Shown: positions 5,948 through 8,574, counted from the whole stretch's first letter. The stretch is 63,381 bases of DNA, filler included, from Reclinomonas americana ATCC 50394 (GCA_048213135.1; 8 parts of 3 records of this genome joined end to end with filler, not necessarily neighbours in it); one strand, 5' to 3'. Notes: generated by a model not told the origin, from the letters alone. Translations and numbers: made by a program.

Positions 5948-8574
5948 ATGCTTGTTGCGGCACGGCGGTTGTTCTCGTCACAGGCCGTGCGCTTTGCGGA
6001 GCACGGTGATCCGCGCGCGGTGTTGCGGTTGCGTTGTGTTTGTGTGTGTGTGTGTGGCATGGACATGACTGTGTGCGCGCCATCTTGTGTCTCTCTTGGC
6101 GCGGCTTGTACGTCTCTGTCTGTCTCTGTGTATGTGCGTGGTGGTAGTGTGCGACTCGTGGTGTGTGTCGTTGTGCAGTGAGTGACTCGCGCACAAATGC
6201 ATGCACGTCACGTGTGCGCTCTCTCACACACTCTCTCACTCTCCTCGCTCGCAATGCACACGCACAAACGCACATGCATACACGTCTGCCTCCACGTCTG
6301 CGTCTTGCGTGTGTGCGTGTGTGACTGACATGGCGCTCCACACACACACAGCCGCGCACCTGAAAAGGTCGGCACTCCGCAGGCCTCTGAGGTGCTTGTG
6401 CGCATGCTGGCGGCCTCCATCAACCCGGCCGATATCAACATTGTGCAGGGCAGGTCAGTCAAACATCAGCACGACTGCAATCAATCTTCGTTGTGCTGAT
6501 GTTTCATGCATGTGCAGGTACGGCAGCAAGCCTTCGTTGCCGGCGATTGGCGGCAGCGAGGGTGTTGCTCGCGTGGAAGCTGTGGGCGCGGGTGTCAAGG
6601 GCCTGGCTGTTGGCGATGTGGTCATCCCTGCGCGACCGCAGTTTGGTGAGGAGCGACTCATGTTGTTGTTTGCTTCGCTCGTGCTGAAAGGATGCGGGTA
6701 GGCACGTGGCGCACGCATGCGATTGCGACTGTGGATCAGCTGATCAAGGTGCCGGCAGATATCCCTGTTGAGCAGCTGGCCACCATCTCGGTCAACCCGC
6801 CGACGGCGTTGCGGCTGCTGAGTGACTTTGTGCAGCTCAAGAAGGGTACGCGCCAAGATTTTGTCGATGATGATAGTGGCGACATGCAGCTGCCGGGCTC
6901 ACGCATGCTCCATGGTACAGGCGACACTGTGATTCAGAATGCTGCCAACAGCGCTGTGGGTCAGGCTGTGATTCAGATTGCGCGCTCTCGTGGCGTGCGT
7001 ACCATCAATGTCATTCGCGAGCGACCCGACCAGGAGCAAACGGTCGAGTATTTGAAGTCGCTGGGCGGTGATTTGGTGGTGACGGAGAAGTACGCGGCGA
7101 GCCACAAGATGCGCGAGCTGATCAGCGATCTCCCCGCGCCCAAGCTGGGCCTCAATGCTGTGGGCGGTGACTCGGCCACCAACCTGGCTAATCTGTTGGC
7201 GTTGCGTAGCGGTGGTGGTGGAGGGGAAGGGGGAGGGGGACGGGGGAGGGAAAGTAGAAGAAGAAGGTTGGCGATCACGATGCAGAGATCATTTGTTTTC
7301 TGGAGGCGGAGTGGTTGACATCTCCTTGTCACTATTCTTTCTTCAGTTCCTCTTGCGATCCATCCTCTCTGTCTGCAATGACGCAGAGATTGTTTCTCTT
7401 CTCTTCTTCATTCCTCTTCCTCTGAGGTGAGGTCTGGATAGTTGGTTTCTCCTTTGCACTCTCTTTCTTCAGTTCCTCTTGCGATCCACTCTGTCTGTTC
7501 AGAGAGCACTTGTTTCCATTTCTTCTTCACTCCTCTGAGGTCTTGATAGTTGGAGTCTCCTTTGCACTCTTCTTCCTTCAGTTCCTCTTGTGATCCACTC
7601 TGTCTGCTTGTCTTCTTCTTCATTCCTCTGGAGTCGGGGTGAATCATGTCTCCATTCCACTTCTCTTCCTGCAATCCCTTGCGATCCACTCTGTCTGTCT
7701 GCAAGGACGCAGAGATCATGTTCAACTTTGTTCGTCTTTCTTCTGGTGGTATCTCCTTTCATTCAACTCGTCTTGCAGTCCCTTGCGATCCACTCTGTCT
7801 GTCTGCAAGGACGCAGAGGTCATGTTTACCTTTGTTCGCCTGGAGTTGTCTCCTTCCCACTCTTCTTCCTGCAGTCCCTCGTTTCTTTGCAGAGATTGCT
7901 GATACTTGCAAGCCTCCTCCGTTCAGAGGATCGTGTCTTTCCCGCTCTCCGTTCTTCTTGCAGGCACCACGTACCCTCCCCCCTCGTGAGATCCCCAATA
8001 CTTGTTTTCTCAATTCATGTGGCCCTTTCGTGCATTTTCTTTCCTTTCCACTCTCCTCCCTGCAATCCCCCCCTGCACTCTTTCCCTTTAGTAGTCGCAT
8101 ACGGCCACATGACGCGGAAAACACCACATCCCGTCCGATCTGTGAAGTTAAGCCGCGTTCAGCTGGGTCAGTACTAGGGTGGGGGACCACTTGGGAAGCC
8201 CCAGTGCTTGTATGCTTTTGCCATTTTTTCTTTCCTTCCTTTTCCTTTTTTTTGCTTCGTGCTTACCTTTTGTGCACTGCAGTACCGGTGGCACGCTGGT
8301 GACGTACGGTGGAATGTCGAAGCACGGTGTGACAGTGTCGACGTCGTCGCTGATTTTCCGCGACATTTCTCTCCGCGGTTTCTGGGTCTCCAAATGGGTG
8401 GAGCAGCACTCGACGGCCGACAAGGCTGCCATGTTGAACGAGCTGTTCGGCCTCATCAAGAGCGGCGCTCTCAAGACGCAGGTCCAATCGGTACCATTCA
8501 ACGAGTTCGAGCGCGCGCTCGAGCTTAGCCAACAACCGTTCCGCAGCGGCGGCAAGGTCGTGCTGAAATTCTAA
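5948..8574 (+). CDS. MECR: Mitochondrial trans-2-enoyl-CoA/ACP reductase (MDR family)
   Basis: MLVAARRLFSS presequence. Motifs VLVRMLAASINPADINIVQGRY, GSEGVARV, ATISVNPPTALRLLSDFV, IQNAANSAVGQAVIQIA, LGLNAVGG and GTLVTYGGMS..LIFRDISLRGFW. Long last intron 7201-8282 keeps the frame (LA|TGG). Confidence 0.93.
7270..7900. repeat. Degenerate tandem repeat array (~5-6 units of ~90-125 bp) in the MECR intron
   Basis: Core C(T/C)T(C/G)CA(G/A)T(T/C)CC..TTG(C/T)GATCCACTCTGTCTG recurs at ~7341, 7467, 7576, 7668, 7772, with a partial copy at 7868. Confidence 0.85.
8097..8216 (+). rRNA. 5S rRNA gene, intronic
   Basis: GCATACGGCCACATGACGCGGAAAACACCACATCCCGTCCGATCTGTGAAGTTAAGCCGCG...AGTACTAGGGTGGGGGACCACTTGGGAAGCCCCAGTGCTTGTATGC. 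About 120 nt; terminal helix GCATAC/GTATGC; CCGATC loop; A-box AGTTAAGC; C-box region. Confidence 0.93.
8216..8228 (+). terminator. Pol III oligo-T terminator of the 5S gene
   Basis: TTTT immediately after the 5S 3' end, and a second T-run just downstream. Confidence 0.7.

What the first reader, a model, noticed from the sequence alone, without database searches (positions are those of the whole stretch)
8097..8219. Intact 5S rRNA gene nested in the last intron of MECR
Seen: a full-length 5S sequence with paired ends, internal promoter boxes and a T4 terminator. It lies on the same strand as MECR, ~65 nt upstream of the 3' splice site of intron 7201-8282. That intron is ~1.08 kb, against ~70 nt for typical introns here. 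Known: 5S genes are usually tandem, linked to rDNA/SL/snRNA/histone repeats, or dispersed in intergenic DNA. Inference: a dispersed Pol III gene hosted inside a Pol II housekeeping transcript, with its terminator merging into the T-rich 3' end of the intron. It may be one of many intron-resident or mobile 5S copies.
Basis: partly seen in the sequence, partly recalled or inferred. Interest (0 to 1): 0.75.

Follow-up and report, generated by a model that had tools for sequence, protein, structure and literature searches.

The report
5S rRNA gene inside MECR intron
A complete-looking 5S ribosomal RNA gene sits, on the same strand, inside the unusually long last intron of a mitochondrial enoyl-reductase (MECR-type) gene of an unidentified eukaryote; it is a neat case of a small RNA gene nested in a protein gene, not a new kind of system.

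Summary
Window 8097-8216 (+) matches the Rfam 5S rRNA model end to end (103.2 bits, gathering score 38, E 1.7e-21). It ends in a T4 run, with T6 and T8 runs just behind. It is the only 5S match in the 63 kb, even at E<=0.1.

The flanking exons, 6921-7200 and 8283-8574, align to human MECR with no residue missing at the junction. So 7201-8282 is a 1082-nt GT-AG intron, and the 5S gene ends 63-66 nt before its 3' splice site. The other four introns of the gene are about 324, 64, 56 and 75 nt.

The long intron also holds 5 clear and 2-3 decayed units of a 93-127-nt direct repeat, found nowhere else in the window.

Best reading: a solitary, self-contained Pol III gene nested in sense orientation in a Pol II intron. 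Small RNA genes nested in introns and dispersed 5S genes are both described.

Untestable here: expression, splicing, copy number and whether other 5S copies are intronic. No whole genome, sequencing runs or close relatives were available. I found no sign of a mobile element. Interest is modest.

The parts
8097..8216 (+). 5S rRNA gene, full length (120 nt)
   Evidence: RF00001, 103.2 bits, model 1-120/120, E 1.7e-21, one non-standard pair. The MFE fold reproduces helices I-III.
8216..8219 (+). T4 run at the 3' end of the 5S gene (Pol III terminator-like)
   Evidence: Read from the sequence. T-run list. No TTTT inside the gene.
8224..8253 (+). Further T runs (T6 8224-8229, T4 8240-8243, T8 8246-8253). 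Possible back-up terminators that also form the pyrimidine tract of the intron.
7201..8282 (+). Last (fifth) intron of the MECR-type gene: 1082 nt, GT...AG, 64% pyrimidine on the coding strand
   Evidence: Exon colinearity with human MECR and with 6 of 6 homologues. Composition. If the intron were retained, the frame would stop at about 7316-7318.
7321..8096 (+). Degenerate direct-repeat array: 5 clear units at 7321-7848 (64-79% pairwise identity) and 2-3 decayed units at 7849-8096, each 93-127 nt (the last, 8039-8096, is a 58-nt partial unit). The array ends at the 5S gene.
   Evidence: the repeat finder families D1-D6. Motif scans give 5 and 4 matches, all in the intron, with 0 expected. Unit alignment. 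TRF did not report the array.
5948..6027 (+). MECR exon 1 (start codon and Arg-rich N-terminus). The boundary is inferred.
   Evidence: tblastn with P0004. Sequence.
6352..6453 (+). MECR exon 2
6518..6645 (+). MECR exon 3 (ADH_N / GroES-like part)
   Evidence: Pfam PF08240, E 5.8e-07, on ORF 6186-6698..
6702..6845 (+). MECR exon 4
6921..7200 (+). MECR exon 5 (nucleotide-binding domain)
   Evidence: phmmer against PDB: human MECR 2vcy_A residues 156-244, E 1.9e-24. Homologues are 61-68% identical.
8283..8574 (+). MECR exon 6, with stop codon at 8572-8574
   Evidence: phmmer against PDB: human MECR residues 250-341, E about 4e-19. Pfam PF13602, E 1.8e-07.

Best explanation
This is a solitary, structurally intact 5S rRNA gene nested in sense orientation in the last spliceosomal intron of a nuclear MECR-type (mitochondrial trans-2-enoyl-thioester reductase) gene.

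It most likely works as an ordinary self-contained Pol III unit. The promoter lies inside the transcribed region. Transcription starts at G8097 and stops at the T4 run at 8216-8219, with the T6 and T8 runs as back-ups. All of this is independent of the host gene.

Pol II reads through the gene when it makes the MECR pre-mRNA, and the 5S copy in that transcript is removed with the intron. The intron is long because of two additions: a local 93-127-nt repeat array and the 5S gene.

Shown: the gene's integrity, its position, its strand, and the colinearity of the flanking exons. Inferred: Pol III transcription, use of the RNA in ribosomes, and splicing of the host intron. The route of arrival is open. 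A DNA-level insertion or duplication is favoured because the T-run terminator is kept and there is no A-tail or target-site duplication.
For: - Full-length, high-scoring 5S match with one non-standard pair.
- No internal T4; T4 exactly at the 3' end, with T6 and T8 behind it.
- It is the only Rfam hit at gathering score in the window, and no other RNA family scores in the intron at E<=5 apart from chance-level rows.
- The flanking exons are colinear with human MECR with no residue missing, and with 6 of 6 other homologues. Both flanks therefore belong to one gene.
- The locus lies in a gap-free 5,308-base piece, 3968-9275.
- Retaining the intron would stop the frame after 39 extra codons. The host gene therefore needs this intron spliced out, and it otherwise looks intact.
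- Precedent. RNA genes nested in introns are studied in Caenorhabditis (PMC3342880: abstract start in the listing, passages). A Pol III-occupied MIR lies in a Polr3e intron (PMC5358760: abstract start in the listing). Yarrowia has 108 dispersed 5S genes (PMC2566860: passages).
Against: - There is no expression or splicing evidence of any kind. No sequencing run was listed and the genome is not held.
- I cannot say whether this copy equals the organism's major 5S, because the copy number and the other copies are unknown.
- Read, the 30 nt upstream are C-rich with no TATA-like element at about -30. The only A/T-rich patch is TTTAGTA at -10 to -4. Some eukaryotes need upstream elements for 5S transcription (recalled, not from a call).
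- The thermodynamic fold alone is not distinctive: z = -1.14, and 23 of 200 shuffles fold at least as well.
- T4 is a weak terminator in some eukaryotes (recalled).
Confidence: 0.6

Rival explanations
1. A silent 'orphon': a stray copy that recently escaped from a tandem 5S array or an rDNA-linked 5S locus elsewhere in the genome. It is still intact in sequence, but it is not (or barely) transcribed and is on its way to becoming a pseudogene.
For: - It is the single copy in 63 kb, with no second copy or fragment.
- Draft assemblies built from short contigs, like this one, usually lose tandem 5S arrays.
- In 7 of the 17 metagenome loci that share the 27-mer, the 5S lies beside the LSU rDNA. Linked arrangements are therefore common among 5S genes of this sequence type.
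- There is no TATA-like upstream element.
Against: - The gene shows no decay: 103.2 bits, full length, one non-standard pair, terminator intact.
- The neighbouring repeat units have already diverged to 64-79% identity. The intron sequence around the gene is not young, yet the 5S is intact. This argues weakly for constraint, but the order of the two events is unknown.
Confidence: 0.25
2. Host-dependent biogenesis: the 5S RNA is cut out of the spliced MECR intron (a Pol II transcript) by trimming, as happens for intronic snoRNAs. Its supply would then be coupled to the host gene.
For: - It is on the same strand as the host and lies near the 3' end of the intron.
- No upstream TATA-like element is seen.
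- Precedent for a structured RNA made from the last intron of a Pol II transcript: the GUT15 tRNA-like RNA in Arabidopsis (PMC6152437: abstract start in the listing).
- 5S can be matured from longer precursors in Yarrowia tRNA-5S fusions (PMC2566860: abstract and passages).
Against: - Being on the same strand has a prior of one in two.
- A T4 run placed exactly at the mature 3' end, together with an unaltered internal region, is what an autonomous Pol III gene looks like, and an intron-processed RNA would not need it.
- A housekeeping mRNA host would give far too little 5S for ribosome production (inference).
Confidence: 0.05
3. Assembly artefact: a multi-copy 5S sequence was wrongly placed or collapsed here by the assembler.
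For: The window is a chain of contigs joined by seven 100-base linkers (44 N + TTAATTAATTAA + 44 N) plus sized gaps: 23 N runs and 2700 N in all. Repeats such as 5S are typical places for false joins.
Against: - The two flanks are consecutive exons of one gene, in the right order, strand and phase. A false join through a repeat would not produce this.
- There is no N within 3968-9275.
- What could still be wrong is the number of 5S copies or repeat units inside the intron.
Confidence: 0.05

Closest known systems
Dispersed (non-tandem) 5S rRNA genes, e.g. Yarrowia lipolytica (108 scattered copies, 48 fused behind tRNA genes; PMC2566860) and fission yeasts (PMC10085805)
   Same: A solitary 5S gene outside any array or rDNA unit, carrying its own terminator. 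There is one copy in 63 kb here.
   Different: In the passages I read, those papers describe intergenic, centromeric or tRNA-fused copies, not copies inside spliceosomal introns. There is no tRNA gene beside this copy (0 tRNAs in the window). Whether this organism's 5S family is dispersed at all is unknown.
Small RNA genes nested in introns of Pol II genes: nested RNA genes in Caenorhabditis introns (PMC3342880) and the Pol III-occupied MIR in the first intron of mammalian Polr3e (PMC5358760)
   Same: A small gene with an internal promoter lies wholly inside an intron of a protein-coding gene. Interference between the two polymerases is possible.
   Different: The nested gene here is a 5S rRNA gene. 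It is in sense orientation, whereas the Polr3e MIR is antisense. It lies in the last intron, 63-66 nt from the 3' splice site. The passages shown of PMC3342880 do not mention 5S or rRNA (0 occurrences).
Structured RNAs released from Pol II introns: intronic snoRNAs, and the GUT15 tRNA-like RNA from the final intron (PMC6152437)
   Same: Same strand as the host, and located in the final intron.
   Different: Those RNAs lack their own promoter and terminator. This 5S has a T4 run exactly at its 3' end and an unaltered internal region.
5S-derived retroelements: Cassandra TRIMs with 5S-like LTR segments (bioRxiv 10.1101/2023.07.14.548913, abstract start in the listing) and 5S-headed SINEs (recalled)
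   Same: They are a way for 5S-like sequence to reach introns.
   Different: Here there is a complete 120-nt gene that terminates at once. It has no second LTR copy, no tail, no body sequence and no significant target-site duplication.

Membership tests
5S rRNA (Rfam RF00001) | Full-length match to the covariance model above the curated gathering score | tested here: met
   103.2 bits against 38, model positions 1-120 of 120, E 1.7e-21.
5S rRNA (Rfam RF00001) | Three-way junction with helices I-V and base-paired termini | tested here: met
   One non-standard pair (C9.C) in the cmscan alignment; helix I has 8 of 9 standard pairs. The MFE fold recovers helices I-III, but its energy is not distinctive (z = -1.14).
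Functional eukaryotic 5S gene (Pol III type 1) | Run of T on the coding strand at the 3' end and none inside the gene | tested here: met
   T4 at 8216-8219, T6 at 8224-8229, T8 at 8246-8253, and no TTTT in 8097-8215.
Functional eukaryotic 5S gene (Pol III type 1) | Internal control region bound by TFIIIA (box A, intermediate element, box C) | tested here: inconclusive
   Only conservation could be judged. Gene positions 26-57 are identical in the window and in the 7 metagenome 5S genes aligned (7 of the 17 loci), and the region matches the Rfam consensus closely. TFIIIA binding cannot be tested here.
Functional eukaryotic 5S gene (Pol III type 1) | The transcript is present and equals the ribosomal 5S of the organism | not testable with these tools
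   No genome is held and no sequencing run was listed.
MECR / Etr1-type mitochondrial enoyl-thioester reductase (host gene) | Sequence similarity over the catalytic and nucleotide-binding domains to solved MECR structures | tested here: met
   Exon 5 against 2vcy_A residues 156-244, E 1.9e-24. Exon 6 against 1zsy_A residues 263-354, E 3.7e-19. Pfam ADH_N and ADH_zinc_N_2. The top named relatives are annotated as trans-2-enoyl-CoA reductase.
Nested gene in a spliceosomal intron | GT...AG borders, with flanking exons that join in frame without loss of conserved residues | tested here: met
   GT at 7201, AG at 8282, split codon GC|T. Human MECR residues 247/248/249 are bridged exactly, and 6 of 6 homologues cross the junction.
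Nested gene in a spliceosomal intron | The spliced junction is seen in RNA | not testable with these tools
   No RNA holder was listed.
5S-derived mobile element (SINE / Cassandra-type) | 5S-like head followed by element body or tail, or paired LTRs, with target-site duplication | tested here: not met
   The gene ends in its own terminator, and no second 5S-like segment occurs in the window at E<=0.1. The longest shared flank word is 7 nt, reached by 505 of 2000 shuffles.
Tandem 5S array or rDNA-linked 5S | Neighbouring 5S copies or rRNA genes | tested here: not met
   There is one 5S and no other rRNA match in 63,381 bases, of which 2,700 are N. The upstream repeats contain no 5S remnant at E<=5.

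The most novel reading that the evidence does not exclude
In this lineage the working 5S rRNA genes are scattered and some have settled in introns of housekeeping genes, on the coding strand. There they either borrow the open chromatin of the host or are even matured from the excised intron. 5S supply would then be tied to Pol II transcription of genes such as MECR, which would be an arrangement not described for 5S rRNA. My phrase searches found no paper describing a 5S gene inside a spliceosomal intron.
Probability: 0.07. Interest if true: 0.7.

Novelty: new member of a known kind. Interest (0 to 1): 0.3.

Why it matters
If this copy is active, the locus puts a Pol III transcription complex and its terminator in the path of Pol II. 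It lies only about 65 nt from a 3' splice site of an essential mitochondrial fatty-acid-synthesis gene. That makes it a natural test case for polymerase interference and for how splicing copes with a tightly folded, protein-bound RNA in the intron.

It also bears on how 5S genes spread. An intact solitary copy without retroposition marks points to DNA-level dispersal.

Taken alone, one such copy in a draft assembly is an anecdote. Small RNA genes nested in introns and dispersed 5S genes are both known.

Tried and rejected
- Whole-genome 5S count: no genome is held for this window.
- Public reads: no run was listed, and no RNA holder was listed.
- Earlier notes of this scan: nothing for this genome, for the 5S sequence, or for look-alike stretches. 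The word search returned only archaeal 5S-intron notes, which are unrelated.
- Metagenome scan with a 27-nt stretch of the gene: 17 loci carrying 18 5S matches. The 7 loci I aligned (7 of 17) are only 73.7-78.3% identical to the window's 5S. They are therefore other organisms and say nothing about this genome. In 7 of the 17 the 5S lies beside LSU rDNA.
- Organism identity. The best MECR relatives are 61-68% identical and come from scattered eukaryotic groups. A REJ-domain ORF found no relative among the longer proteins searched. The Atlas gave only generic eukaryotic Cwc15 clusters. The taxon stays unknown.
- Repeats as decayed 5S copies or other RNA genes: rejected, because nothing in the intron apart from the 5S exceeds chance at E<=5.
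- Tandem Repeats Finder missed the 93-127-nt array.
- Bacterial-type promoter/terminator scan: irrelevant to a eukaryote.
- Target-site duplication: not significant.
- Literature: six exact phrases for intronic 5S gave 0 papers. Broader searches gave no paper describing a 5S gene in a spliceosomal intron. The three candidates I opened were irrelevant. Only the open-access library was searched.

Full report
**The thing itself**

A scan of the whole 63,381-base window against Rfam gives one match at gathering score. It is 5S rRNA (RF00001) at 8097-8216 on the + strand: 103.2 bits against a threshold of 38, E 1.7e-21, covering model positions 1-120 of 120. Only one pair is flagged as non-standard, C9.C at the inner end of helix I. 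Helix I therefore has 8 of 9 standard pairs, and the 'paired ends' of the finding are real.

A permissive scan (E<=0.1) of the whole window finds no second 5S and no 5S fragment. ARAGORN finds no tRNA gene. The gene contains no TTTT. It ends in T4 (8216-8219), followed by GCCA, T6 (8224-8229), T4 (8240-8243) and T8 (8246-8253).

The minimum-free-energy fold reproduces helices I to III. Its energy is not unusual for the composition: z = -1.14, and 23 of 200 shuffles fold at least as well. The evidence for 5S identity is the covariance-model score, not thermodynamics.

**The host gene**

- The stretch 6923-7198 translates to 92 residues that match human mitochondrial trans-2-enoyl-CoA reductase (MECR, 2vcy_A) residues 156-244 at E 1.9e-24.
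- The stretch 8284-8571 matches residues 250-341 at about 4e-19.
- Adding the three unaligned residues at the end of the first exon and the split codon GC|T (Ala), the two exons abut exactly at MECR residues 247/248/249, with no residue missing or added.
- tblastn with six relatives shows the same for 6 of 6.
- It also gives the rest of the gene: exons at about 5948-6027, 6352-6453, 6518-6645, 6702-6845, 6921-7200 and 8283-8574. The introns are about 324, 64, 56, 75 and 1082 nt, all GT...AG.
- Pfam finds ADH_N and ADH_zinc_N_2 on the exon-bearing ORFs.
- If the last intron were retained, the frame would stop after 39 extra codons. The C-terminal 97 residues depend on its removal.

The 5S gene therefore lies inside intron 7201-8282, on the coding strand. 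Its T4 run ends 63 nt before the last base of the intron.

**The rest of the intron**

The intron is 64% pyrimidine on the coding strand. From 7321 to 7848 it holds five units of a 93-127-nt direct repeat, 64-79% identical pairwise. From 7849 to 8096 there are two or three further, much decayed units (the last a 58-nt partial unit), which end at the 5S gene.

Two motifs from the repeat occur 5 and 4 times in the window, all inside this intron, against 0 expected by chance. Tandem Repeats Finder did not report the array. At E<=5 nothing in the intron other than the 5S rises above chance for any Rfam family. The repeats are therefore not decayed 5S copies.

Each unit begins with a pyrimidine run followed by CAG, which looks like a 3' splice site. 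I note this without an explanation. The length of the intron is accounted for by the repeat array plus the 5S gene with its T-rich trailer.

**How the gene got there**

- There is no A-rich tail.
- The longest word shared by the 40 nt on either side is 7 nt (TCTTTCC), and 505 of 2000 shuffles reach that. So there is no evidence of a target-site duplication.
- There is no second 5S-like arm that would indicate an LTR-type element.
- The T-run terminator is kept.

These points favour a DNA-level duplication or insertion over classical retroposition. They do not exclude tailless retroposition. A mobile 5S element is not supported.

**Reliability of the assembly**

The window carries 23 runs of N, 2700 bases in all. 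Seven joins have the form 44 N + TTAATTAATTAA + 44 N, a six-frame stop linker used to chain contigs. The MECR/5S locus lies in a gap-free piece, 3968-9275.

Both flanks of the 5S are consecutive, in-phase exons of one gene, so a false join through a repeated 5S is very unlikely. What could still be wrong is the number of repeat units or of 5S copies inside the intron.

**What could not be tested**

- No whole genome is held.
- No sequencing run was listed.
- This scan has no earlier notes on this genome or on look-alike sequence.
- A metagenome scan with a 27-nt stretch of the gene returned 17 loci with 18 5S matches. The seven I aligned are only 73.7-78.3% identical to this gene, so they come from other organisms. 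In 7 of the 17 the 5S lies next to the 3' end of the LSU rRNA gene.
- The organism remains unidentified. The closest MECR proteins are 61-68% identical and come from scattered eukaryotic groups. A REJ-domain ORF found no relatives among the longer proteins searched.

Expression, splicing, copy number and the context of other 5S copies are therefore open.

**Mechanism**

The most likely reading (0.6) is an autonomous Pol III gene that happens to sit in a Pol II intron. It would have an internal promoter, a start at G8097 and termination at the T runs. The copy within the pre-mRNA would be discarded with the intron.

The main rival (0.25) is a silent stray copy (orphon) of an array or rDNA-linked locus elsewhere. 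The solitary state and the lack of a TATA-like element in the C-rich 30 nt upstream fit this. The complete lack of decay, next to repeats that have diverged to 64-79%, argues weakly against it.

Processing of 5S out of the excised intron (0.05) is the interesting alternative. However, a terminator placed exactly at the mature 3' end is the mark of a Pol III unit. An assembly artefact gets 0.05.

**Comparison with what is known**

- Dispersed 5S genes are described in Yarrowia: 108 copies, 48 of them fused behind tRNA genes (PMC2566860; abstract and passages). They are also described in fission yeasts (PMC10085805; passages).
- RNA genes nested in introns are studied in Caenorhabditis (PMC3342880; abstract start, passages, no mention of rRNA in those).
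- A Pol III-occupied MIR in the first intron of Polr3e interferes with Pol II (PMC5358760; abstract start).
- A tRNA-like RNA is made from the final intron of the Pol II transcript GUT15 (PMC6152437; abstract start).
- Six exact phrases for an intronic 5S gene found 0 papers. Five broader searches found none describing one. The three candidates I opened were irrelevant. Only the open-access library was searched, and vertebrate annotations list many 5S-like pseudogenes in introns (recalled).

I file the locus as a new member of two known kinds: a dispersed 5S gene, and a small RNA gene nested in an intron.

**Verdict**

Interest is 0.3. The locus would become notable only if a genome-wide count showed that intron residence is the rule for working 5S genes in this organism, or if the RNA proved to depend on the host transcript.

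Noticed in passing
window 3868-3967, 9276-9375, 27831-27930, 32058-32157, 59128-59227, 60663-60762, 61866-61965: Seven identical 100-base joins of the form 44 N + TTAATTAATTAA + 44 N (a six-frame stop linker). The window is therefore a chain of contigs, not continuous sequence. Nine further N runs of 20-570 bases also occur.
   Followed up: partly
window 7321-8096: A degenerate 93-127-nt direct-repeat array confined to the MECR intron. 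Each unit starts with a pyrimidine run plus CAG that looks like a 3' splice site. Its origin and effect on splicing are unknown.
   Followed up: partly
window 6028-6351: The first MECR intron (about 324 nt) is largely (GT)n/(CA)n-type simple sequence and gives weak chance hits to microRNA families. Its inferred donor hexamer, GTTGCG, is the same as that of the 5S-bearing intron.
   Followed up: no
window 5913-5948: A short upstream ORF (ATG at 5913, stop at 5946-5948) overlaps the putative MECR start codon at 5948 by one base (read).
   Followed up: no
window about 43000-57600, minus strand: A long run of ORFs on the minus strand includes REJ (45259-46221) and fibronectin type III (47346-47966) domains. 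It is probably one very large surface-protein gene. The REJ ORF had no relatives among the longer proteins searched.
   Followed up: partly
window 1646-2059 (+), 10202-11182 (-), 17113-17538 (-), 30593-31108 (+): Other recognisable genes in the window: TLDc domain, ArfGAP, the Cwc15 splicing factor and an NHL repeat. 127 of the 135 ORF translations scanned against Pfam had no match, many of them being alternative frames of the same DNA.
   Followed up: no
L014 1-1615; also L003, L004, L006, L010, L013, L015: Metagenome contigs of other eukaryotes that share the 27-mer carry their 5S gene a few hundred bases from the 3' end of the LSU rRNA gene. L014 has two 5S copies 272 nt apart, and in L004 the 5S is on the opposite strand to the LSU gene.
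   Followed up: no
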